A stretch of DNA of 64,000 nt from NCBI RefSeq assembly GCF_036507355.1, contig NZ_AP027877.1. One strand, 5' to 3'. The position numbers were made by a program, and so were the translations under genes. Positions 12,770-45,206 of the stretch are shown here, in pieces; position 1 is the first letter of the stretch, and the number at the start of each line of letters is the position of its first letter. Origin of the DNA: Escherichia coli. Lineage in GTDB: Bacteria > Pseudomonadota > Gammaproteobacteria > Enterobacterales > Enterobacteriaceae. The notes under the pieces were generated by a model that worked only from the letters and a program-made list of their open reading frames with translations, was not told the origin of the DNA and searched no databases.

Positions 12770-14002
12770 ATGGCAAAGGTATCGCTGGAGAAAGACAAGA
12801 TTAAGTTTCTGCTGGTAGAAGGCGTGCACCAAAAGGCGCTGGAAAGCCTTCGTGCAGCTGGTTACACCAACATCGAATTTCACAAAGGCGCGCTGGATGA
12901 TGAACAATTAAAAGAATCCATCCGCGATGCCCACTTCATCGGCCTGCGATCCCGTACCCATCTGACTGAAGACGTGATCAACGCCGCAGAAAAGCTGGTC
13001 GCTATTGGCTGTTTCTGTATAGGAACAAACCAGGTTGATCTGGATGCGGCGGCAAAGCGCGGGATCCCGGTATTTAACGCACCGTTCTCAAATACGCGCT
13101 CTGTTGCGGAGCTGGTGATTGGCGAACTGCTGCTGCTATTGCGCGGCGTGCCGGAAGCCAATGCTAAAGCGCACCGTGGCGTGTGGAACAAACTGGCGGC
13201 GGGTTCTTTTGAAGCGCGCGGCAAAAAGCTGGGTATCATCGGCTACGGTCATATTGGTACGCAATTGGGCATTCTGGCTGAATCGCTGGGAATGTATGTT
13301 TACTTTTATGATATTGAAAATAAACTGCCGCTGGGCAACGCCACTCAGGTACAGCATCTTTCTGACCTGCTGAATATGAGCGATGTGGTGAGTCTGCATG
13401 TACCAGAGAATCCGTCCACCAAAAATATGATGGGCGCGAAAGAAATTTCACTAATGAAGCCCGGCTCGCTGCTGATTAATGCTTCGCGCGGTACTGTGGT
13501 GGATATTCCGGCGCTGTGTGATGCGCTGGCGAGCAAACATCTGGCGGGGGCGGCAATCGACGTATTCCCGACGGAACCAGCGACCAATAGCGATCCATTT
13601 ACCTCTCCGCTGTGTGAATTCGACAACGTCCTTCTGACGCCACACATTGGCGGTTCGACTCAGGAAGCGCAGGAGAATATTGGCCTGGAAGTTGCGGGTA
13701 AATTGATCAAGTATTCTGACAATGGCTCAACGCTCTCTGCGGTGAACTTCCCGGAAGTCTCGCTGCCACTGCACGGTGGGCGTCGTCTGATGCACATCCA
13801 CGAAAACCGTCCGGGCGTGCTAACTGCGCTGAACAAAATCTTCGCCGAGCAGGGCGTCAACATCGCCGCGCAATATCTACAAACTTCCGCCCAGATGGGT
13901 TATGTTGTTATTGATATTGAAGCCGACGAAGACGTTGCCGAAAAAGCGCTGCAGGCAATGAAAGCTATTCCGGGTACCATTCGCGCCCGTCTGCTGTACT
14001 AA
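12770..14002 (+). CDS. serA: D-3-phosphoglycerate dehydrogenase
   Basis: 410-aa ORF MAKVSLEKDKIKFLLVEGVHQKALESL...; NAD-binding GIIGYGHIG. Confidence 0.95.
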   Translation: MAKVSLEKDKIKFLLVEGVHQKALESLRAAGYTNIEFHKGALDDEQLKESIRDAHFIGLRSRTHLTEDVINAAEKLVAIGCFCIGTNQVDLDAAAKRGIPVFNAPFSNTRSVAELVIGELLLLLRGVPEANAKAHRGVWNKLAAGSFEARGKKLGIIGYGHIGTQLGILAESLGMYVYFYDIENKLPLGNATQVQHLSDLLNMSDVVSLHVPENPSTKNMMGAKEISLMKPGSLLINASRGTVVDIPALCDALASKHLAGAAIDVFPTEPATNSDPFTSPLCEFDNVLLTPHIGGSTQEAQENIGLEVAGKLIKYSDNGSTLSAVNFPEVSLPLHGGRRLMHIHENRPGVLTALNKIFAEQGVNIAAQYLQTSAQMGYVVIDIEADEDVAEKALQAMKAIPGTIRARLLY

Positions 14003-14023
14003 TTCCCCTTCTCTGAAAATCAA

Positions 14024-14057
14024 CGGGCAGGTCACTGACTTGCCCGTTTTTTTATCC
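14024..14057 (+). terminator. serA intrinsic terminator
   Basis: Hairpin cgggcag..ttgcccg followed by TTTTTTT. Confidence 0.6.
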
Positions 14058-14182
14058 CTTCTCCACACCGTTGCGCATTCTACTTTGCGAGTATGCTCCA
14101 GAAAATAAATCAAAGTCAGATCAATGCGTTGTGTTTATTTAATGGGGATTTACGATGGCAGGGCAGCATGGGGCTGTAACGG

Positions 14183-14325
14183 TAAAGCCCTCACCGAAGC
14201 GAGGGCTTGAAGGAGAAGGGTTATGATGCGACTTGTCATCATACTGATTGTACTGTTACTCATAAGTTTCCCAGCTTATTAACAGTCAGTCTCAGGGGAG
14301 GAGTAATCCTCCCTTACCCTTACTC
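14183..14325 (-). ncRNA. sibC: Sib antisense RNA (antitoxin of ibs), approximate bounds
   Basis: Antisense to ibs ORF; minus-strand hairpin gccctcgcttcggtgagggc + TTT near 14186-14207 as terminator; 5' end not determined. Confidence 0.45.
14223..14282 (+). CDS. ibsC: Type I toxin Ibs (19-aa hydrophobic peptide)
   Basis: ATGATGCGACTTGTC... encodes MMRLVIILIVLLLISFPAY; AGGAG Shine-Dalgarno upstream; position between serA and ygfA. Confidence 0.7.
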   Translation: MMRLVIILIVLLLISFPAY

Positions 14326-14382
14326 ACTAAATTAGGTTAAAGAATCAACGATGTCAATCAGGGCGATGCAGGTGTGTCGCCC

Positions 14383-14931
14383 TTACCACTCCCAGACTTT
14401 CGACGGTGTAACCACCGCAGGAAGAGGGATATCCCACTCTTCAACGGGAAGTTTTTCCACTAACTGACAATCATGCGCATAACCCACCGGTTGCATTTTA
14501 TAGTGCTGCCAGTTTTGTAAAGTCCGATCATAAAAACCACCGCCCATTCCCAGGCGCTGGCCGTACTCATCAAAGGCGACCAGCGGTGTGATCAACACGT
14601 CTAATCGGGAAAGGGGTAGCACGTCACGCACATCCAATTTTGGCTCATGGATCTTCAACCTGTTCATCACCAGTTCGCTTTGCGGATGGTAATTCAGGAA
14701 CAGCAAATTACCGGCACTAAAGGGATGCAAAACTGGAAGATATACGCGCTTACCGGCGCGCCAGAGTTGTTCTATAAGCGGCTGGGTGTCGAGTTCTCCA
14801 TCAAAAGAGAGGAATACAGCGACCGTATGTGCCATCACCACCGGGGGATAAGTCATCATCCGGGTAGCGGCTTGTTGACCCATTTCCTGCTGTTGTTCCG
14901 GCGTTAACGCACGACGACGTTGCCGAATCAT
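14383..14931 (-). CDS. ygfA: 5-formyltetrahydrofolate cyclo-ligase YgfA (Fau)
   Basis: ORF 14383-15129 overlaps ssrS; start set at MIRQRRRALTPEQQ (182 aa). Confidence 0.85.
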   Translation of the reverse strand: MIRQRRRALTPEQQQEMGQQAATRMMTYPPVVMAHTVAVFLSFDGELDTQPLIEQLWRAGKRVYLPVLHPFSAGNLLFLNYHPQSELVMNRLKIHEPKLDVRDVLPLSRLDVLITPLVAFDEYGQRLGMGGGFYDRTLQNWQHYKMQPVGYAHDCQLVEKLPVEEWDIPLPAVVTPSKVWEW

Positions 14932-15003
14932 TTTGCGGATTTCTTGTCGGGATAATGTCAGTGAGAGTTCTGGTAGATGCGTCATGGCTGGTGCCAGATA
15001 AGA

Positions 15004-15189
15004 AGGGAATCTCCGAGATGCCGCCGCAGGCTGTAACCCTTGAACCCTTGGTTCAAGGTGAATGTGTCGTCGCAGTTTTAAGGCTTCTCGGACGGACCGA
15101 GCATGCTCACCAACCGCGGAGCGCCACATTCTTGTGGTATGAAATATCGGCTCAGGGGACTGGCCCGCTTGCGAACACCTCAGAGAAAT
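15004..15189 (-). ncRNA. ssrS: 6S RNA
   Basis: Reverse complement reads ATTTCTCTGAG..GTTCGCAAGCGGGCCAGTCCCCTGAGCCGATATTTCATACCACAAGAATGTGGCGCTCCGCGG...GGAGATTCCCT, matching E. coli 6S RNA; between zapA and ygfA. Confidence 0.9.
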
Positions 15190-36512: not shown

Positions 36513-36535
36513 CCCCGGCAAATGTCGGGGTTTTT
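36513..36535 (+). terminator. lysS intrinsic terminator
   Basis: Hairpin ccccggcaaatgtcgggg followed by TTTTT; IS1 end abuts the T-run. Confidence 0.6.
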
Positions 36536-36550
36536 GGTAATGACTCCAAC

Positions 36551-37054
36551 TTATTGATAGTGTTTTATGTTCAGATAATGCCCGATGACTTTGTCATGCA
36601 GCTCCACCGATTTTGAGAACGACAGCGACTTCCGTCCCAGCCGTGCCAGGTGCTGCCTCAGATTCAGGTTATGCCGCTCAATTCGCTGCGTATATCGCTT
36701 GCTGATTACGTGCAGCTTTCCCTTCAGGCGGGATTCATACAGCGGCCAGCCATCCGTCATCCATATCACCACGTCAAAGGGTGACAGCAGGCTCATAAGA
36801 CGCCCCAGCGTCGCCATCGTGCGTTCACCGAATACGTGCGCAACAACCGTCTTCCGGAGCCTGTCATACGCGTAAAACAGCCAGCGCTGGCGCGATTTAG
36901 CCCCGACATAGCCCCACTGTTCGTCCATTTCCGCGCAGACGATGACGTCACTGCCCGGCTGTATGCGCGAGGTTACCGACTGCGGCCTGAGTTTTTTAAG
37001 TGACGTAAAATCGTGTTGAGGCCAACGCCCATAATGCGGGCTGTTGCCCGGCAT
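36551..37054 (-). CDS. insB: IS1 InsB transposase segment
   Basis: 167-aa [40 protein letters not shown]. Confidence 0.9.
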
Positions 37055-37248
37055 CCAACGCCATTCATGGCCATATCAATGATTTTCTGGTGCGTACCGG
37101 GTTGAGAAGCGGTGTAAGTGAACTGCAGTTGCCATGTTTTACGGCAGTGAGAGCAGAGATAGCGCTGATGTCCGGCGGTGCTTTTGCCGTTACGCACCAC
37201 CCCGTCAGTAGCTGAACAGGAGGGACAGCTGATAGAAACAGAAGCCAC
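36973..37248 (-). CDS. insA: IS1 InsA
   Basis: 91-aa [43 protein letters not shown]. Confidence 0.9.
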
Positions 37249-37504
37249 TGGAGCACCTCAAAAACACCATCATACACTAAATCAGTAAGTTGGCAGCATC
37301 ACCCGCATCAGGATGGGAAATAGGGTAAAAAAGTAAGGAACTTCGATACCTCTACTACAGTGAATATTTTGCTGATGATACTTCCCTTTGCCAAATGAAA
37401 TTAACCTCTTTCTCTATTACCGCGTTTTTCCAGAAGCAAGAGATTGGGTATCAAGAGGCTGGCTGCTATGATATGGCGTCTTGTTTTTTAAGCGAGGAAA
37501 GATT

Positions 37505-38338: not shown

Positions 38339-38412
38339 GCGGGCGTAGTTCAATGGTAGAACGAGAGCTTCCCAAGCTCTATACGAGGGTTCGATTCCCT
38401 TCGCCCGCTCCA
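38339..38412 (+). tRNA. glyU: tRNA-Gly (anticodon CCC)
   Basis: GCGGGCGTAGTTCAATGGTAGAACGAGAGCTTCCCAAGCTCTATACGAGGGTTCGATTCCCTTCGCCCGCTCCA, 74 nt with encoded CCA. Confidence 0.95.
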
Positions 38413-38546
38413 TGACCTTTCTTAAAGTACTCCAACCTACTGAATCCTAAGGGATACGGCTTTAAGCCTTCCGCTAGTTTTACTCACTGTAACCAACACT
38501 GTAACTAAATTTGTTGAAATAGTGAGCAGACTTAAGATCTCAGTAC

Positions 38547-40178
38547 ATGCTCAACTCAAAAACCTATCTTTATCAGCGCAATGGCGTCTTTTATATCCGC
38601 CTCAGGATGAAGTCCACAGATCGCCTGACCGTTTCACATCCTTCCCATAGCCGTTATAAAATAGCGTCAGTATCACTACGGACTAAGGATAGACGTACAG
38701 CTATGGCTTACTCACGGCAAATCAAGGCAGCACTTAGGGCAATCCATGCAGACAGACCCAACGCCTCCTATGAGGAAATGAGGGAACACCTGAGGGACAT
38801 CGCAGAGTGGGAGTTGTCTACAGGTCGTTCAGACCTCTTCGAGCCAGATATGAGAGATCTATACCGTGACCAGTATGGGGAAGTGGGAGAGAATCTTGTC
38901 CATGCTCTGGCAAGCGAGCCACTGACTATTGACCAGCATCGCTATATTAATGAGGCTCTTAATGTACTCAAGGCCTGCATGAAGCGCATTGAAGCGGGAG
39001 ATAGCCAGCCACTTATAGATTATATAGATGGATTTGATGCTGCTGCTGGGGCTAATGGCCAAGCCTCTGCAACTCTATCTGTTAGTGCTCCCCAAAAAAC
39101 AAGCATTACTGAAGGCAAACACTGCGTAACCGTTGCTTCTCTCTTTGAGCAGTACGAGCAGGAAAACGCCCAGAACTGGAAGCCAGCAACATTACGAGAA
39201 AACAAAGCTTCTCATGCTGCGTTAATCGAAGTTTTTGATTATCTGGGCCTCAATGCTGACGCCAATGTGTTAGCTCGTGCGGATATGCTTAGGGTTCGGG
39301 ATATCCTCCAGCAATTGCCGAAGAATCGTAAGCAGCGTTTCAAAGATGTTCCGTTGGTTGACCTGCTAGGTCGTGAGGATAAAACCGATTGTCTGGATAT
39401 TGTTACCATCAATAATAAATATCTCATTAAGATGGCGGCTGTTTTCAAGTGGGCCGTGCGTAATGACCTGATTAAAAAGAATATGACAGAAGGGCTAGAG
39501 CTTAAGGTTCCCCAGCGTAAAGCCTCTGAGGCGCGTAATGCTTTCTCTACGGAGCAGGTAGGACAACTACTGGCTGCCGCCCAAGTTTACTCACAGAGAC
39601 CTTCTGGTAAGCCGTATCATTATTATGTTACCGCCTTGGCTGCTATCACTGGGGCGAGACTCAATGAAATAGCCCAACTACAGGTCAAAGACGTCAGGAC
39701 CACTGAGGCGGGAACCGTTTATATTCATATCAATGAAGACGATAGTAGTCTACCCGGTAAGAGCATCAAGAACGCTCATAGTGACCGCTGTGTGCCTCTG
39801 GTCGATGGGGCCTATGGTTTTATATTGGCTGACTTTATGAGGTTGGTTGAGACCCGTAGAGGCGCTGATGGTGATGACGCTATGGTGTTCGATGGTCTTC
39901 GCCTCATGAAGAACGGTTACGGTGAGCAGGTGAGTAAATGGTTTAATCGGACGTTGTTGCCTAAAGTCCTCGCAGACCGTAGCGGCTTAGCGTTTCACTC
40001 GTTTAGACATACAGTTGCGACCCAGTTAAAACAACATGGGGTCGAGTTGGCGTATGCACAGGCGATCATGGGGCATAGTTCAGGGTCTATTACTTACGAC
40101 CGTTATGCTAAAGAGGTTGAGGTTGATAGACTGGTCAATGTGATGGCTGATGTTTATAAGGAGGTTGTGGCCCCTTAA
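38547..40178 (+). CDS. Tyrosine recombinase/integrase, unusually large (island 1)
   Basis: 543-aa ORF starting 135 bp after glyU; C-terminal HSFRHTVATQLKQ...AQAIMGHSSGSITYDRYAKE resembles catalytic R..H-x-x-R/Y box. Confidence 0.75.
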   Translation: MLNSKTYLYQRNGVFYIRLRMKSTDRLTVSHPSHSRYKIASVSLRTKDRRTAMAYSRQIKAALRAIHADRPNASYEEMREHLRDIAEWELSTGRSDLFEPDMRDLYRDQYGEVGENLVHALASEPLTIDQHRYINEALNVLKACMKRIEAGDSQPLIDYIDGFDAAAGANGQASATLSVSAPQKTSITEGKHCVTVASLFEQYEQENAQNWKPATLRENKASHAALIEVFDYLGLNADANVLARADMLRVRDILQQLPKNRKQRFKDVPLVDLLGREDKTDCLDIVTINNKYLIKMAAVFKWAVRNDLIKKNMTEGLELKVPQRKASEARNAFSTEQVGQLLAAAQVYSQRPSGKPYHYYVTALAAITGARLNEIAQLQVKDVRTTEAGTVYIHINEDDSSLPGKSIKNAHSDRCVPLVDGAYGFILADFMRLVETRRGADGDDAMVFDGLRLMKNGYGEQVSKWFNRTLLPKVLADRSGLAFHSFRHTVATQLKQHGVELAYAQAIMGHSSGSITYDRYAKEVEVDRLVNVMADVYKEVVAP

Positions 40179-40179
40179 G

Positions 40180-40225
40180 GATGACCATAGGCGATGACCA
40201 TAGGCGATGACCATAGGCGATGACA
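40180..40225 (+). repeat. 3.5 tandem copies of 13-bp unit GATGACCATAGGC
   Basis: Exact tandem copies at 40180, 40193, 40206 plus partial; start 1 bp after integrase stop. Confidence 0.9.
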
Positions 40226-40330
40226 CTTGCTACTATTCCTATGGTCCCCTTTGTGGTCCTATGTGGTCCTGTGTGACCCTTTGTGTGGTCATGTTTTGAC
40301 TCATAGTTTTCACTACTTGTCAAGCATATT

Positions 40331-40353
40331 TAATACGACTCACTATAGGGAGA
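40331..40353 (+). promoter_or_regulatory. Phage T7 RNA polymerase promoter, exact consensus
   Basis: TAATACGACTCACTATAGGGAGA = 23/23 match to T7 -17..+6 consensus; predicted +1 G at 40348; faces the KilA-N gene. Confidence 0.8.
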
Positions 40354-40585
40354 AGGGACACAAAAAGTTTTCTCTCTCTGTCTCTCTCTATGATGACACT
40401 TGCTACTACTTCAGGTAGCTTTAACTCTAACCGTAACTTATCGCATCCTTTCAGGGGCGGGATGACCAATTACAGACACCAAGCGTTCTACTTAAAATGA
40501 ATGCTTCCTGTGTGCTCTGGGTCAGTCGATAAGTGAATAGCCTTAGACATCATATTAATTATGGTCTCTAACCCCTACAGGGGCT

Positions 40586-40729
40586 TAACTTTAAGTATTA
40601 ACTTATAGTCTACTTAAAGACACAATTAAAGATTAACTTAAAGTATTAAATTATAGATTAATTAAAGACCAATTAAAGAGTAACTTTAAGTATTAACTTA
40701 TAGTCTACTTAAAGACACAATTAAAGATT
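40586..40729 (+). repeat. AT-rich iteron-like array: two identical 49-bp direct repeats with a degenerate copy between
   Basis: TAACTTTAAGTATTAACTTATAGTCTACTTAAAGACACAATTAAAGATT at 40586-40634 and 40681-40729. Confidence 0.9.
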
Positions 40730-40922
40730 GACTCTAAGGGAATACCTTAAGAGGTGATGATATTCATAATAATCAATCACCAAACCTATAGGTCTCCTCA
40801 AGGCATTACCCAGAAGCTAACTGTATGGCCCTGTATGGTCCTGTACGCCATTCTTTAGGATGCCATGTAGTTTCGTATGGCCTGATGCCTAGCGTGGCTC
40901 AGAGACCCTCCCAGTAGTAAAT

Positions 40923-40945
40923 CAATACGACTTACTAATAGGAGA
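40923..40945 (+). promoter_or_regulatory. Degenerate T7-like promoter (5 mismatches)
   Basis: CAATACGACTTACTAATAGGAGA retains the AATACGACT core; function uncertain. Confidence 0.3.
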
Positions 40946-41157
40946 CACACTCCGAACCACTCACCACGTGTCTCTCAAAGTTCCACCTCTCGCGCTTCAC
41001 CATACAGTAGCTCCGCACAGCTACGACACAATCATTCATTCAATCTCAAAGTCATTCTGTTTGCATCCTGTTGTCCTGCTGGTCTCCCTTCGCTTGGGGA
41101 CTTTGAGTGGGCCAGTAGGGGGCGGTTTAGTGTGCATATTTAAAAGGTAACCAAGCA

Positions 41158-41721
41158 ATGAACAATAAACATAAACATGCAGGTCATATTATCACTATTG
41201 AAGGCCACAGCTTTAAGTCTAATGAGTCTGGCATGTGGAATCTTACAGAAATATGGAAAATCCTCGGATTACCTAACAATAAGCTACCCTCTCAGTGGCG
41301 CGGCAAGGTAACAAAGAGGCTCACCGACATGCAAAAAATGCACGTCGAGAAGATTGGTATTGAAAGCATAACCTACGCAGACAAACAGGCTACCCTCAAG
41401 TATGCAGGATGGGTCTCTGAAGATTTCGAGGACATGGTCTATGCAGCCTTTGAGGCTATCCTTGAGATGCCTGAAGTTGCCACGGTCGTTGCTAATAAGA
41501 TGGTCGAACTTGGCTATCACGCTGAAGCTGAGCTATTGGAACGTCATAAGGACGACTATAGAGAAGCTATGCAGACCCTTAAAAAGATTGGTAAACGTGT
41601 TGACGGCAGGAAGCCTGAGCGCATCTACAAGGCCGTACTTAACGGTAATCTGACGAAATTTCAAGGGTTATCCATGATTTCTCGCAGCAGTGTCTGGTAC
41701 GCCCGAACAGTGAATCTATGA
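41158..41721 (+). CDS. KilA-N-like DNA-binding domain protein (island 1)
   Basis: 187-aa ORF; N-terminal IITIEGHSFKSNESGMWNLTEIWKILG ... ATLKYAGWVSEDFEDMV resembles KilA-N/anti-repressor N-domain by eye. Confidence 0.5.
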   Translation: MNNKHKHAGHIITIEGHSFKSNESGMWNLTEIWKILGLPNNKLPSQWRGKVTKRLTDMQKMHVEKIGIESITYADKQATLKYAGWVSEDFEDMVYAAFEAILEMPEVATVVANKMVELGYHAEAELLERHKDDYREAMQTLKKIGKRVDGRKPERIYKAVLNGNLTKFQGLSMISRSSVWYARTVNL

Positions 41722-41844
41722 TGGCTATCGATCACGATAGATGCCAGCGATCAATTTCAGGTTACCGATCGAAACAAACGATCAGCACGATGGTTGCAAT
41801 CGGATATCATATTGACACTTGTCTGACATCCTGAAGGTATCAAT

Positions 41845-42318
41845 ATGTTTGGGCTTTTTAAGAAAAAGGCAAAAGCGGAAAGGTGTTATGATGTAACACG
41901 CATTCAATACGAGCTGGTTGTAATGTCATCTAAGCTGATAAAAAAACAGACCGATATGTTCAAAGTAATAAAAGGGGAGCGAGAGGAGGCTTTAGGAGAC
42001 CCTTTATTATCAGCAGGGTATATAACGCCATGGGTCATTGGATATTGCACTGGTCTCCTGGATGCAGTGACTCAGACGGAGGCTAACAGGATGGCATTTA
42101 CATCAGAAATGCTTGGGCTTCTTTTTGCTGCAGTTTTCGGTGATGATAAGTCTCTTGAGGCCATGGGAACTTATATAGCCTGTAACGAAGCCTCCTCACC
42201 AGACCATGGATTTCATGTTACGTATGAGCTTTATATGTCTGGTCTAGCGAAAGCGTTTAATGAGGTATGTGAGGATAAACCTGCGATAGGACTTCTGAAC
42301 TATTTAATGCAGGATTGA
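41845..42318 (+). CDS. Hypothetical protein (island 1)
   Basis: 157-aa ORF downstream of KilA-N gene; no family recognised. Confidence 0.45.
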   Translation: MFGLFKKKAKAERCYDVTRIQYELVVMSSKLIKKQTDMFKVIKGEREEALGDPLLSAGYITPWVIGYCTGLLDAVTQTEANRMAFTSEMLGLLFAAVFGDDKSLEAMGTYIACNEASSPDHGFHVTYELYMSGLAKAFNEVCEDKPAIGLLNYLMQD

Positions 42319-42584
42319 AAATTTCCCACAAAAATCTCAGTGCCTATCTAACAGTAATAACCCTGCAACATTCCCCCGTATACCTCCAGAAGTTATCCAG
42401 AAGCCGAAGTAGGTATCCTGTCATGTATTTGAATCATCAAAGTTGTTCGTTCTATTCCTCTTTAGGGAATATTACAGCCCTACAGCCTTGACCAGAGATC
42501 ACTTGATGTGTAACCATAACTGTAACCAAAAGGATTCATCATCCTTTAAGAAACAATTGGTTAGTGAGTGATTGTCTTCGATAC

Positions 42585-42607
42585 TTCGATTCCCTTCGCC
42601 CGCTCCA
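42585..42607 (+). repeat. Direct repeat of glyU 3' end (att site duplication between island 1 and island 2)
   Basis: TTCGATTCCCTTCGCCCGCTCCA identical to 38390-38412. Confidence 0.9.
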
Positions 42608-42771
42608 AACTCAAGTCTCCTGAAGTCTACCAAACTCAATTTTTCCTTGATAAATCAGCAGTTATAGCTTTCTATTAGTCTATTGAACTCAATTGTACTC
42701 CCCCAGGGTCAAGCTCAATGTGGGGGTATGGATGGGGGTATAATTGTACCCCCTGCTGAGAGGTACCCCCA

Positions 42772-43998
42772 ATGAAGCTGACTGCTCGTCAGGTTGAAAC
42801 TGCGAAACCCAAAGAGAAGCCCTACAAACTGGCCGATGGTGGTGGGCTTTACCTGCTGGTTAATCCCAACGGTAAAAGATACTGGCGTCTCAAATACCGT
42901 TCGTTAGGTAAAGAGAAGCTGCTCGCTATTGGCGTTTATCCCGATGTTTCTTTAGCTGAGGCCCGAAGTAAGCGTGAGGATGCTAAAAGAACATTAGCGG
43001 CTGGCAACGATCCCTCTCTTGAACGAAAAATTGAGAAACTTAGTCGTCAACAAGACGCTGAAAACTCGTTTGAGGCTATCACACGGGAGTGGTATCAGCG
43101 TCGCTATGACCGCTGGTCTGTCTCCTACCGCGAAGAAATGCTGAGAACCTTTGAGAAAGATGTATTTCCTTATATCGGTCACAGGCCAATCAAAGATATC
43201 AAGCCGATGGAGTTGCTTGCAGTTCTTTCAAAGATAGAAGCACGAGGGGCAACAGAGAAAGTCCGCAAGGTTCGTCAGCGTTGTGGAGAGGTCTGGAAGT
43301 ATGCCGTTGTGACTGGGAGGGCCGAGTACAATCCAGCACCTGATCTAGCCAGCGCCGTGAGTCCTCATGAGAAAGAGCACTATGCTTTTTTAACCCAGGA
43401 TGAATTGCCTGAGTTTCTTCGGACTCTGAACGCCTATGCCGGTAGTGTGCTTGTTAAGATTGCGATGCAATTGCTCATTTTAACAGGAGTAAGGCCAGGG
43501 GAGTTGAGGCAAGCGGAGTGGCAGGAGTTTGATTTTGAGAAAAAGGTTTGGAATGTACCAGCGGAACGTATGAAAATGCGCCGCCCTCATCTTGTTCCAT
43601 TATCAAGCCAGGCAATTGACCTGCTTAATCAACTTAAACCCATAACGGGAGCAGGAGCGTTATTATTCCCAGGACGTAATAATCCTAAGAAACCGATGAG
43701 CGATATGGCATTGACTGTGTTGGTCAGGCGTATCGGCTATGCCGGGCGCGTTACAGGGCATGGATTCCGCCACACGATGAGTACCATTTTGCATGAGCAG
43801 GGATTCAACTCGGCCTGGATTGAGTTACAGCTGGCTCACGTCGATAAGAACTCAATTCGTGGGACGTATAACCATGCTCAATATTTGGAAGGTCGGCGGG
43901 AGATGATGCAGTGGTATGGAGATTTCATCGGTCAAGCAGGCAAATCCGGATCATCGCTAGCTTATGCAGCTATTAGCTTGACTGCTGAATTAGAGTGA
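42772..43998 (+). CDS. P4-type tyrosine integrase (island 2)
   Basis: 408 aa; N-terminal arm-binding MKLTARQVETAKPKEKPYKLADGGGLYLLVNPNGKRYWRLKYR; C-terminal GHGFRHTMSTIL...LAHVD...YNHAQY. Confidence 0.9.
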   Translation: MKLTARQVETAKPKEKPYKLADGGGLYLLVNPNGKRYWRLKYRSLGKEKLLAIGVYPDVSLAEARSKREDAKRTLAAGNDPSLERKIEKLSRQQDAENSFEAITREWYQRRYDRWSVSYREEMLRTFEKDVFPYIGHRPIKDIKPMELLAVLSKIEARGATEKVRKVRQRCGEVWKYAVVTGRAEYNPAPDLASAVSPHEKEHYAFLTQDELPEFLRTLNAYAGSVLVKIAMQLLILTGVRPGELRQAEWQEFDFEKKVWNVPAERMKMRRPHLVPLSSQAIDLLNQLKPITGAGALLFPGRNNPKKPMSDMALTVLVRRIGYAGRVTGHGFRHTMSTILHEQGFNSAWIELQLAHVDKNSIRGTYNHAQYLEGRREMMQWYGDFIGQAGKSGSSLAYAAISLTAELE

Positions 43999-44008
43999 GA
44001 AGGGGCAA

Positions 44009-44056
44009 GTTGAGCCTCTTCGCTGAGAAGAGGCTCAACGTGAACCTATTTTTTTG
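44009..44056 (+). terminator. Intrinsic terminator after int2
   Basis: Hairpin gttgagcctcttc-gctga-gaagaggctcaac followed by T-run. Confidence 0.65.
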
Positions 44057-44195
44057 GGAGTTAATACTTTTTGCAATTTTTTTTTTCGTGCCGTTGGATG
44101 TAAAGATCTGTGGGGGTTAGGGAAGAAAATCATGCTATGTTAGTCTTTGAGGAGTGAGTCAAAATGTTATAACTTTTTCAAAGAGGCGTTACATC

Positions 44196-45131
44196 GTGAA
44201 AGTCGTTTTTAATGTTAATGGTAAAAAAGTTCCGCTCAAATCTCTGCAATATATAAGTAAAGCAAATCAACTCGAAGTTATGCGGAATTGGTTTTTTGAG
44301 AATTTTGAAGATCCCGCGAACTCTTGCCCGTATGAATCCCGTGAAGGCGGGTATGCTTACATTTATGGGGGCCCATACGAAGCAAGTGAAGAGTTGCAAG
44401 CGATGTTTGAAGGACACGTGAAATTTGATTATATCCAAGAATTAGTCAATGAATTACAAGAACAGTGCTATGAATGGTCTGGTAATTCAAATAATATTAA
44501 TGATTGGTACGATGAAGACTTGTATGATGCTGTTACATCTTCTGAACATCCTTTTTCTAAGTTCGTTGAAAGCATTGATGGAATAAAATTGCTGTCTAAA
44601 GGCGAATTTAAAGATAAACAAAAAGATCATCTGCTTAGCATCCTATATATTAATGTCATTACAGCCCTGGAAACACTTTATGTTGAGTTATTTATTAACT
44701 CTATAGATAAAAACGACTCATATCTTGCTGACTTTATAGAAAAAGGTAAGACGGAATTTAAGGTAAATAAAGGAATATTGGCTTTGCCATTCAAAGGAGA
44801 AACTATTGAAAACATGAGGGCGCAATTAATTAAGGTAATTAAAGAGCATTTGATTAGTGCAAGTTGGCATAGTACAAACAAAGTTGTAGGACGTTATAAA
44901 GCTACATTTGATATAAAAGTACATAAAGAGTGGCCAATAGATGTGATCGAAATAGCAACTCAAAAGCGTAATCATTTAGTCCATCGTGGCGGGAAAGATA
45001 AAGAAGGTAATTCGGTAGTGATTACTGAACAGGATTTAGAAATGTTGCTGGATCACGCACAATCTCTTGGAGAAAAATTGTTTGATAGCCTTGAGGTGGC
45101 ATTACAGAAAAAAGATGAGAATGAATTTTGA
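44196..45131 (+). CDS. Hypothetical protein with HEPN-like Rx4H motif (possible abortive-infection RNase)
   Basis: ORF 44154-45131; GTG 44196 preferred (AAGAGG 9 nt upstream); motif KRNHLVHRGG near C-terminus. Confidence 0.4.
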   Translation: MKVVFNVNGKKVPLKSLQYISKANQLEVMRNWFFENFEDPANSCPYESREGGYAYIYGGPYEASEELQAMFEGHVKFDYIQELVNELQEQCYEWSGNSNNINDWYDEDLYDAVTSSEHPFSKFVESIDGIKLLSKGEFKDKQKDHLLSILYINVITALETLYVELFINSIDKNDSYLADFIEKGKTEFKVNKGILALPFKGETIENMRAQLIKVIKEHLISASWHSTNKVVGRYKATFDIKVHKEWPIDVIEIATQKRNHLVHRGGKDKEGNSVVITEQDLEMLLDHAQSLGEKLFDSLEVALQKKDENEF

Positions 45132-45182
45132 GTCTCGGGGTAGGTTGATAGTGCTACCGATAACGAGCAAGCAAATGATACT

Positions 45183-45203
45183 CGGCAGGCAGTGCCTGCC
45201 GGA
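45183..45203. terminator. Bidirectional terminator hairpin between convergent genes
   Basis: cggcaggcagtgcctgccgg palindrome between stops at 45131 and 45207. Confidence 0.5.
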
Positions 45204-45206
45204 GGA

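What the first reader, a model, noticed from the sequence alone, without database searches (positions are those of the whole stretch)
14183..14325. ibsC/sibC type I toxin-antitoxin between serA and ygfA
A 19-codon ORF encoding the hydrophobic peptide MMRLVIILIVLLLISFPAY with a strong Shine-Dalgarno is easily missed by ORF finders. It matches the Ibs toxin family, whose translation is blocked by the antisense Sib RNA. The antisense bounds given are approximate.
Basis: partly seen in the sequence, partly recalled or inferred. Interest (0 to 1): 0.35.

Follow-up and report, generated by a model that had tools for sequence, protein, structure and literature searches.

The report
Known ibsC/sibC toxin-antitoxin locus
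This is the well-studied E. coli ibsC/sibC locus, a 19-residue membrane toxin gene lying entirely under an antisense RNA that silences it, present here as a common natural allele (Pro instead of Ser at residue 17), so it is ordinary.

Summary
The finding is correct and already known. The ORF at 14223-14282 (+) encodes MMRLVIILIVLLLISFPAY. It matches Pfam Ibs_toxin (47 bits, cut-off 27) and is 18/19 identical to K-12 IbsC. The opposite strand matches Rfam SIB_RNA (138 bits, gathering score 56). Transferring the K-12 sibC coordinates gives a 141-nt SibC at 14321-14181 (-), 137/141 identical to K-12.

Gene order is as in K-12: serA, ibsC/sibC, fau (ygfA), ssrS. RefSeq annotates identical DNA as ibsC (WP_071525914.1), and the spacer is found in 5,425 of 5,426 complete E. 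coli genomes.

One detail stands out. Three of the four differences from K-12 are adjacent: codon 17 is CCA here and AGC in K-12, which is SibC nt 49-51. Han et al. 2010 swapped exactly this triplet to retarget SibC recognition domain TRD1 to ibsD. Because the two genes overlap, cognate pairing is kept. The predicted fold and TRD2 (the anti-Shine-Dalgarno part) are unchanged. The allele is common: 934 of 5,422 genomes, alongside Ser (1,546), Gly (1,835) and another Pro haplotype (130).

Expression and toxicity are inferred by homology, not shown. Interest is low.

The parts
14223..14282 (+). ibsC coding sequence: 19 codons plus TAA, encoding MMRLVIILIVLLLISFPAY
   Evidence: Translation. Pfam Ibs_toxin 47.3 bits, profile positions 1-19 of 19. 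18/19 identical to K-12 IbsC. Identical DNA is annotated ibsC, WP_071525914.1, in strain D8.
14210..14215 (+). Shine-Dalgarno AAGGAG, 7 nt upstream of the first ATG
   Evidence: Read from the sequence. Corresponds to G50, G51 and G53 of the ibsC mRNA, which SibC protects in K-12 (PMC2943612). Unpaired in the predicted mRNA fold.
14163..14321 (+). ibsC mRNA as defined for K-12 (159 nt). The 5' end is inferred and the 3' end is only approximate.
   Evidence: Han et al. report an 18-nt 5' overhang of ibsC mRNA over the SibC 3' end and a 159-nt transcript. The mapping was checked by G50/G51/G53 falling on the GGAG of the SD. The region is identical to K-12.
14129..14156 (+). Putative ibsC promoter: TTGTGT, 16 nt, TACGAT, ending 6 nt before the inferred +1
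   Evidence: My inference from the position of the inferred +1. The sequence is identical to K-12. The generic scan did not call it. Figure 4B of PMC2943612 could not be viewed.
14181..14321 (-). SibC antitoxin RNA, 141 nt, antisense to the whole ibsC ORF and its translation initiation region
   Evidence: Coordinate transfer from K-12 sibC b4446. 137/141 identical. Rfam SIB_RNA 138.3 bits. MFE -55.3 kcal/mol, z = -5.2.
14329..14357 (-). sibC promoter: -35 TTGACA (14357-14352), 17-nt spacer, -10 TAATTT (14334-14329), then 7 nt to +1 at A14321
   Evidence: Read from the sequence. Aligned to the first 30 positions of the Rfam model. Differs from K-12 by one spacer base, 14338. The generic scan did not call it because the -10 matches only 3 of 6.
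14182..14208 (-). SibC terminator: a 10-bp GC-rich hairpin (SibC nt 114-137) followed by UUU
   Evidence: Predicted fold. The stem is supported by compensatory changes among the six Sib sequences compared (the window's SibC and the five K-12 paralogs). Identical to K-12.
14254..14276 (-). TRD1 (SibC nt 46-68, the P5 stem-loop), which contacts the ibsC ORF
   Evidence: Domain limits from PMC2943612, mapped by coordinate transfer. The apical loop is nt 48-55 in the predicted fold.
14271..14273 (.). Allelic triplet. ibsC codon 17 is CCA (Pro) here and AGC (Ser) in K-12. This is SibC nt 49-51, UGG here and GCU in K-12.
   Evidence: Han et al. changed the same triplet, G49CU51, to UGC to redirect TRD1 to ibsD. 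Four codons were seen among E. coli genomes: AGC, CCA, CCG, GGA.
14207..14223 (-). TRD2 (SibC nt 99-115, the single-stranded J1/7 region), complementary to the SD and the start of ibsC
   Evidence: Domain limits from PMC2943612. Identical to K-12. Unpaired at nt 106-113 in the predicted fold.

Best explanation
This is the orthologue of the E. coli K-12 ibsC/sibC type I toxin-antitoxin locus.

On the + strand, a ~160-nt mRNA with an exposed AAGGAG encodes the 19-residue hydrophobic peptide IbsC. In K-12, overproduced IbsC depolarises the inner membrane and kills the cell.

On the - strand, a TTGACA/TAATTT promoter drives the 141-nt SibC RNA, which is complementary to the whole ORF and its ribosome-binding site. 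SibC makes first contact through two independent single-stranded elements. One is the P5 loop (TRD1), which pairs inside the ORF. The other is J1/7 (TRD2), which pairs with the SD and start codon. Pairing then spreads, which prevents IbsC synthesis. In vitro, the annealed full SibC-ibsC duplex was cut by RNase III much more readily than the natively formed complex.

Shown here: the sequence, the family matches, synteny, a fold identical to K-12, and conservation across E. coli.

Inferred by homology to K-12 experiments: transcription of both strands, toxicity of the Pro17 peptide, and repression.

The window carries a common natural allele that differs from K-12 at the TRD1 triplet (SibC nt 49-51, ibsC codon 17). 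Because toxin and antitoxin are read from the same base pairs, cognate complementarity is kept automatically.
For: - Peptide: the translation matches Pfam PF13956 at 47.3 bits against a cut-off of 27 and is 18/19 identical to K-12 IbsC. Pro at position 17 occurs natively in K-12 IbsB and IbsE.
- Antisense RNA: Rfam RF00113 at 138.3 bits against 56. K-12 annotates sibC and ibsC at the syntenic place. 137 of 141 nt are identical.
- Fold: MFE structure and energy are the same for both alleles (-55.3 kcal/mol). The variant bases lie in the 8-nt apical loop, and nt 106-113 are unpaired.
- Signals: both promoter regions, the SD, TRD2 and the terminator are identical to K-12, apart from one base in the sibC promoter spacer.
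- Conservation: the spacer is present in 5,425 of 5,426 complete E. coli genomes and is annotated ibsC. This exact 64-nt haplotype is in 934 genomes.
- Mechanism: taken from PMC2943612 and the review PMC8309996.
Against: - There is no transcript or toxicity data for this strain or for the Pro17 allele.
- The generic promoter and terminator scan called neither promoter nor the SibC terminator. They are recognised only by identity to K-12.
- NCBIfam gave no hit for the peptide padded to 20 aa.
- The UUCA (YUNR) motif that Han et al. suggested for first contact in the ibsC mRNA loop reads UUCC in this allele (read). If that motif mattered, pairing kinetics could differ.
- The physiological role of chromosomal ibs/sib loci is not established, even in K-12.
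Confidence: 0.96

Rival explanations
1. The locus is a decayed or silenced copy. The sequence is ibsC/sibC by descent, but the Ser17Pro change or other strain-specific changes have inactivated the toxin or the pair.
For: - Residues 6-19 of IbsC are reported to be needed for toxicity (review PMC8309996), and position 17 lies in that stretch.
- The spacer has a private 8-bp deletion and a private base change upstream, shared at >=99% identity by only 6 genomes.
Against: - The ORF is intact, and the SD, start, both promoter regions and the terminator are as in K-12.
- Pro17 is native in K-12 IbsB and IbsE, and IbsE is annotated as a toxic peptide.
- The haplotype occurs in 934 genomes.
- All four codon-17 variants seen keep the frame.
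- The 8-bp deletion lies about 60 nt upstream of the putative -35 of ibsC, outside both transcripts.
Confidence: 0.03
2. Only the RNA matters. The repeat (formerly called QUAD) encodes an sRNA, and the 19-codon ORF is an incidental reading frame.
For: The ORF is very short, and the Rfam match alone would explain sequence conservation.
Against: - The peptide matches a curated Pfam family over its full length.
- All five K-12 paralogs keep an 18-19-codon ORF with the same MM(K/R)...SFxxY pattern despite many nucleotide differences.
- The within-species changes at codon 17 are whole-codon, in-frame replacements.
- K-12 Ibs peptides are toxic when expressed (PMC2943612; PMC8309996).
Confidence: 0.01

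Closest known systems
E. coli K-12 ibsC (b4665) / sibC (b4446), type I toxin-antitoxin pair
   Same: Same genomic place (serA | ibsC/sibC | fau | ssrS). Same lengths (19 codons, 141 nt). 137/141 nt and 18/19 aa identical. Identical SD, TRD2 and terminator. Both promoter hexamer pairs are identical. The predicted fold is identical.
   Different: ibsC codon 17 is CCA (Pro) instead of AGC (Ser), which makes SibC nt 49-51 UGG instead of GCU in the TRD1 loop. There is one base change in the P2 loop (nt 18), one in the sibC promoter spacer, and an 8-bp deletion upstream of the ibsC promoter.
K-12 ibsD/sibD and ibsE/sibE (between yqiK and hldE), ibsA/sibA and ibsB/sibB (between yegL and mdtA)
   Same: Same family and architecture. 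The window's TRD1 core (AAGCUGGGAAAC) is one base from SibD's (AAGCUGCGAAAC). Pro17 is shared with IbsB and IbsE.
   Different: Different loci. The second-to-third residue is Lys (MMK) instead of Arg (MMR). TRD2 and many other positions differ, and mean column identity across the family alignment is 82%. The window sequence is clearly the ibsC orthologue, not a D or E copy.
Other cis-antisense type I systems (hok/sok, ldr/rdl, symE/symR)
   Same: A small toxin whose synthesis is blocked by an antisense RNA from the same locus (PMC2943612 introduction).
   Different: In ibs/sib the sRNA spans the entire ORF and the translation initiation region, and uses two independent recognition domains.

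Membership tests
Ibs toxin family (Pfam PF13956) | 18-19-residue hydrophobic peptide that matches the family profile above the curated cut-off | tested here: met
   47.3 bits against a cut-off of 27, E=1.8e-12, profile positions 1-19 of 19. The query was padded with one upstream in-frame residue to reach the tool's 20-aa minimum. 18/19 identical to K-12 IbsC.
Ibs toxin family (Pfam PF13956) | Toxic on overexpression, with membrane depolarisation | not testable with these tools
   Known for K-12 IbsC (PMC8309996). The Pro17 allele has not been tested.
Sib RNA family (Rfam RF00113) | Covariance-model match above the gathering score | tested here: met
   138.3 bits against 56, full model 1-147, E=1.9e-28.
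Sib RNA family (Rfam RF00113) | An RNA of about 140 nt encoded opposite to, and spanning, the whole ibs ORF and its translation initiation region | tested here: met
   Transferred K-12 ends give 14321-14181 (-). This covers the SD (14210-14215) and the ORF (14223-14282). The transcript itself was not observed.
Sib RNA family (Rfam RF00113) | Its own promoter and an intrinsic terminator | tested here: inconclusive
   TTGACA, 17 nt, TAATTT, and a 10-bp GC hairpin plus UUU are present and identical to K-12. The generic consensus scan called neither. Activity was not tested.
Sib RNA family (Rfam RF00113) | Two single-stranded target recognition domains: TRD1 in the P5 loop and TRD2 in J1/7 | tested here: met
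   The predicted fold leaves nt 48-55 and 106-113 unpaired. TRD2 is identical to K-12. TRD1 differs at nt 49-51 but stays complementary to its own ibsC.
Orthologue of K-12 ibsC/sibC specifically | Synteny between serA and fau (ygfA), next to ssrS | tested here: met
   serA 12770-14002 (+), fau 14383-14985 (-), 6S RNA 15006-15189 (-).
Type I toxin-antitoxin system | The antisense RNA represses toxin synthesis in vivo | not testable with these tools
   Shown for K-12 SibC/ibsC by co-transformation, gel shift and structure probing (PMC2943612).

The most novel reading that the evidence does not exclude
Within E. coli, ibsC codon 17 (SibC nt 49-51) exists as at least four codons: AGC, CCA, CCG and GGA. 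These differ from one another by up to three adjacent bases. Exact 64-nt haplotype counts are 1,546, 934, 130 and 1,835 of 5,422 genomes.

This is the same triplet that Han et al. changed to retarget TRD1 to ibsD. The window's version is one base from K-12 SibD's.

The most novel reading not excluded is that this is more than a relaxed loop or codon. The recognition loop may be under diversifying selection, or exchanged by gene conversion with paralogs, so that Sib/ibs pairs in one genome stay orthogonal. That would predict that the ibsC allele covaries with which ibsD/ibsE copies a genome carries. Strain D8, whose ibsC spacer is identical to the window's, has only ibsE and no ibsD.
Probability: 0.12. 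Interest if true: 0.35.

Novelty: already known. Interest (0 to 1): 0.1.

Why it matters
It matters little as a discovery. The ibs/sib loci were described in 2008, are in Rfam and Pfam, and RefSeq annotates this exact peptide.

It has some value as an annotation point. The 19-codon gene falls below common ORF-length cut-offs, and the sibC RNA is not annotated in the PGAP records examined.

It also has modest value as a natural experiment. The allele changes exactly the three bases that define TRD1 specificity in the laboratory, while TRD2 is unchanged. This could be used to ask how much paralog discrimination in the Sib family matters in nature.

Tried and rejected
- The generic sigma-70 and terminator scan of 13950-14450 found no promoter and only the serA terminator. 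The sib and ibs signals are non-consensus and were placed by homology instead.
- The NCBIfam scan of the padded peptide returned nothing. Pfam did match.
- Fozo et al. 2008 (PMC2597788) is not held. Its results are cited only as relayed by PMC2943612, PMC2887945 and PMC8309996.
- I tried to find the source genome so as to inspect its other sib loci. Strain D8 has an identical 380-nt spacer but is only 98.1-99.6% identical elsewhere and has a different gene content. Strain D72 shares a related IS1 junction but carries the K-12 ibsC allele. The paralog content of the source genome therefore remains unknown.
- I asked whether the allele changes the SibC fold. It does not: structure and energy are the same.
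- I asked whether the window holds further ibs/sib copies. There are none.
- I asked whether the triplet difference is rare or private. It is not: it occurs in 934 genomes.

Full report
**Observation**

Window 14223-14282 (+) translates to MMRLVIILIVLLLISFPAY followed by TAA. At 19 codons, it is absent from the ORF list, whose minimum is 20 aa. AAGGAG sits at 14210-14215, 7 nt before the first ATG.

A scan of the whole window against Rfam at gathering thresholds gave three hits. One is SIB_RNA (RF00113) on the minus strand at 14357-14207, with 138.3 bits against a gathering score of 56, E=1.9e-28, covering the full model. The other two are 6S RNA at 15006-15189 (-) and a tRNA. A degenerate pattern for the start of Ibs ORFs matches only here, with none expected by chance. 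There is therefore a single ibs/sib unit in the window.

**Identity and exact bounds**

The flanking ORFs are serA (12770-14002, +) and fau/ygfA (from 14383, -), followed by ssrS, zapA, ygfB and pepP. This is the K-12 order.

The 380-nt serA-fau spacer matches 5,425 of 5,426 complete E. coli genomes, and the feature under the match is annotated ibsC. It is 100% identical to strain D8, where RefSeq calls the same ORF ibsC, WP_071525914.1.

The reference K-12 record annotates sibC (b4446) at 3056851-3056991 and ibsC (b4665) at 3056890-3056949 on the opposite strand. The window and K-12 align without gaps across this stretch. SibC therefore maps to window 14321 down to 14181 on the minus strand, 141 nt.

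The peptide was padded by one in-frame upstream residue to reach the tool's 20-aa minimum. It matches Pfam Ibs_toxin over the whole profile, with 47.3 bits against a cut-off of 27. NCBIfam returned nothing.

**Anatomy**

On the minus strand:
- TTGACA at 14357-14352.
- A 17-nt spacer.
- TAATTT at 14334-14329.
- Seven further bases leading to A14321, the K-12 SibC +1.

The Rfam model includes this promoter, which explains why its hit extends to 14357.

SibC is predicted to fold as follows:
- A closing stem, nt 1-6 with 100-105.
- A 5' hairpin, nt 9-26.
- A long hairpin whose 8-nt apical loop is nt 48-55.
- A hairpin at nt 79-100.
- An unpaired stretch, nt 106-113.
- A 10-bp GC-rich terminator hairpin, nt 114-137, followed by UUU.

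The MFE is -55.3 kcal/mol, with z = -5.2 against shuffles. In an alignment with the five K-12 Sib RNAs, 9 of 43 consensus pairs show compensatory changes.

For the plus strand, Han et al. 2010 report that the ibsC mRNA overhangs the SibC 3' end by 18 nt and used a 159-nt transcript. This puts +1 at 14163. As a check, their G50, G51 and G53 fall exactly on the GGAG of the SD. TACGAT at 14151-14156 and TTGTGT at 14129-14134 would serve as the -10 and -35. This placement is my inference, because the figure could not be seen. The generic promoter/terminator scan called none of these signals. They are recognised by identity to K-12, not by consensus strength.

**Mechanism**

The mechanism is established for K-12 and inferred for this window. 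According to PMC2943612:
- SibC represses ibsC through two independent target recognition domains.
- TRD1 is nt 46-68, the P5 loop, and pairs inside the ORF.
- TRD2 is nt 99-115, the J1/7 region next to stem P1, and pairs with the translation initiation region.
- Initial contact at either site spreads into an extensive but incomplete duplex.
- In vitro, RNase III almost completely digested the annealed full duplex, while the native complex was a poorer substrate.
- A strain deleted for ibsC/sibC cannot even be transformed with an ibsC plasmid.

Overproduced IbsC depolarises the membrane within minutes and induces the psp operon (review PMC8309996). SibC transcription is bound by RNA polymerase carrying sigma-S and shows temperature-dependent rpoS effects (PMC4447067).

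In window coordinates, TRD1 is 14254-14276 and TRD2 is 14207-14223.

**What differs from K-12**

Within the 141 nt there are four differences. One is nt 18 (A here, G in K-12), in the loop of the 5' hairpin. The other three are nt 49-51, which read UGG here and GCU in K-12. On the coding strand this is codon 17, CCA (Pro) here and AGC (Ser) in K-12.

This is exactly the triplet G49CU51 that Han et al. changed to UGC to let SibC pair with ibsD through TRD1. The window's TRD1 core is thus one base from K-12 SibD's.

Several points limit the significance of this difference:
- The change lies in the apical loop and leaves the predicted fold and energy unchanged.
- Cognate complementarity is preserved by construction, because both genes are read from the same base pairs.
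- TRD2 is identical to K-12, and either TRD alone suffices for repression.
- Pro at position 17 is native in K-12 IbsB and IbsE.

One small point runs the other way. The UUCA (YUNR) motif that Han et al. suggested for the ibsC mRNA loop reads UUCC here. It is also absent from several K-12 paralogs (read), so it is unlikely to be essential.

**How common is the allele?**

I used a 64-nt query centred on codon 17, so that an exact match identifies the haplotype.

| Haplotype (codon 17) | Genomes with exact match, of 5,422 |
|---|---|
| Window: CCA, Pro | 934 |
| K-12: AGC, Ser | 1,546 |
| O157-type: GGA, Gly | 1,835 |
| ATCC 11775-type: CCG, Pro | 130 |

In a seven-genome alignment of the spacer, variable sites cluster in predicted hairpin loops:
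- 14160-14170, around the ibsC mRNA 5' end and its predicted 5' hairpin.
- 14271-14273, the TRD1 loop.
- 14303-14305, the loop of the SibC 5' hairpin.

The simplest reading is relaxed constraint at an unpaired, amino-acid-tolerant codon. A selective reading, in which the variation keeps paralogous pairs orthogonal, is not excluded. I rate it at about 0.12.

Strain D8, with an identical spacer, carries only ibsE between yqiK and hldE and no ibsD. One genome cannot establish covariation.

**Source genome**

The window is E. coli-like but matches no complete genome in the collection throughout. D8 is 98.1-99.6% identical and differs in gene content. D72 shares a related IS1 junction but has the K-12 ibsC allele. 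The spacer also carries an 8-bp deletion at 14068/14069 and a private base at 14093. Only 6 genomes reach 99% identity over the spacer. Both changes lie upstream of the putative ibsC promoter and outside both transcripts.

**Verdict**

Both the observation and the interpretation are confirmed. This is a known system, a known gene pair and a common allele. Interest is low. The only mildly interesting aspect is that natural variation falls on the experimentally defined specificity triplet.

Noticed in passing
window 14271-14273, compared with loci L001, L010-L013: ibsC codon 17 (SibC nt 49-51, the TRD1 triplet) occurs as AGC, CCA, CCG and GGA among E. coli genomes. Exact 64-nt haplotypes were found in 1,546, 934, 130 and 1,835 of 5,422 genomes. 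Variable sites in the spacer cluster in predicted hairpin loops.
   Followed up: partly
window 14068/14069 and 14093: There is an 8-bp deletion between short CGTTGC repeats and a private A (C elsewhere) relative to six other E. coli spacers. Only 6 of 5,425 genomes are >=99% identical over the serA-fau spacer. Both changes lie upstream of the putative ibsC promoter.
   Followed up: partly
window 15006-15189 (-): 6S RNA (ssrS), Rfam 139.3 bits. It lies immediately after fau, as in K-12.
   Followed up: yes
window 36533-37303: An IS1 copy sits 40 nt after lysS and joins it directly to the region upstream of actS (ygeR). idi, yqfG/H and the xanthine/urate cluster (uacT, ygfT, ghxQ, guaD, xanQ, xdhD and others) that lie here in strains D8 and D72 are absent from the window. 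This is apparently an IS1-bounded deletion. Only 2 of 5,426 genomes cover >=80% of this junction region.
   Followed up: partly
window 38339-52199: tRNA-Gly(CCC) at 38339-38412 is followed by an island. It holds an intact 543-aa tyrosine integrase (38547-40178), a second P4-type integrase (42772-43998), a protein with a weak HEPN/RES-NTD1 match (44154-45131), a DUF2326 protein (45207-46910, -), and arsA/arsB arsenic resistance genes (49087-52199). The HEPN/RES-like and DUF2326 pair might be a defence module.
   Followed up: partly
window 76-2292: A two-gene insert of about 2.2 kb (358-aa and 309-aa ORFs on the minus strand) lies between mscS and argO and is absent from strain D72. It was not characterised.
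   Followed up: no
window 11480-11607, compared with L006 38394-41510: Strain D8 has a four-gene insert of about 3 kb between argP and rpiA (a LysR regulator, an azoreductase, a DUF1471 protein and a ferredoxin reductase). The window lacks it.
   Followed up: no
search results: One match to the ibsC spacer lies on a plasmid. One O157:H7 genome (TR01, hit H30) covers only 44% of the spacer with no annotated ibsC, which suggests a disrupted locus there. The PGAP records examined annotate ibsC but not the sibC RNA.
   Followed up: no
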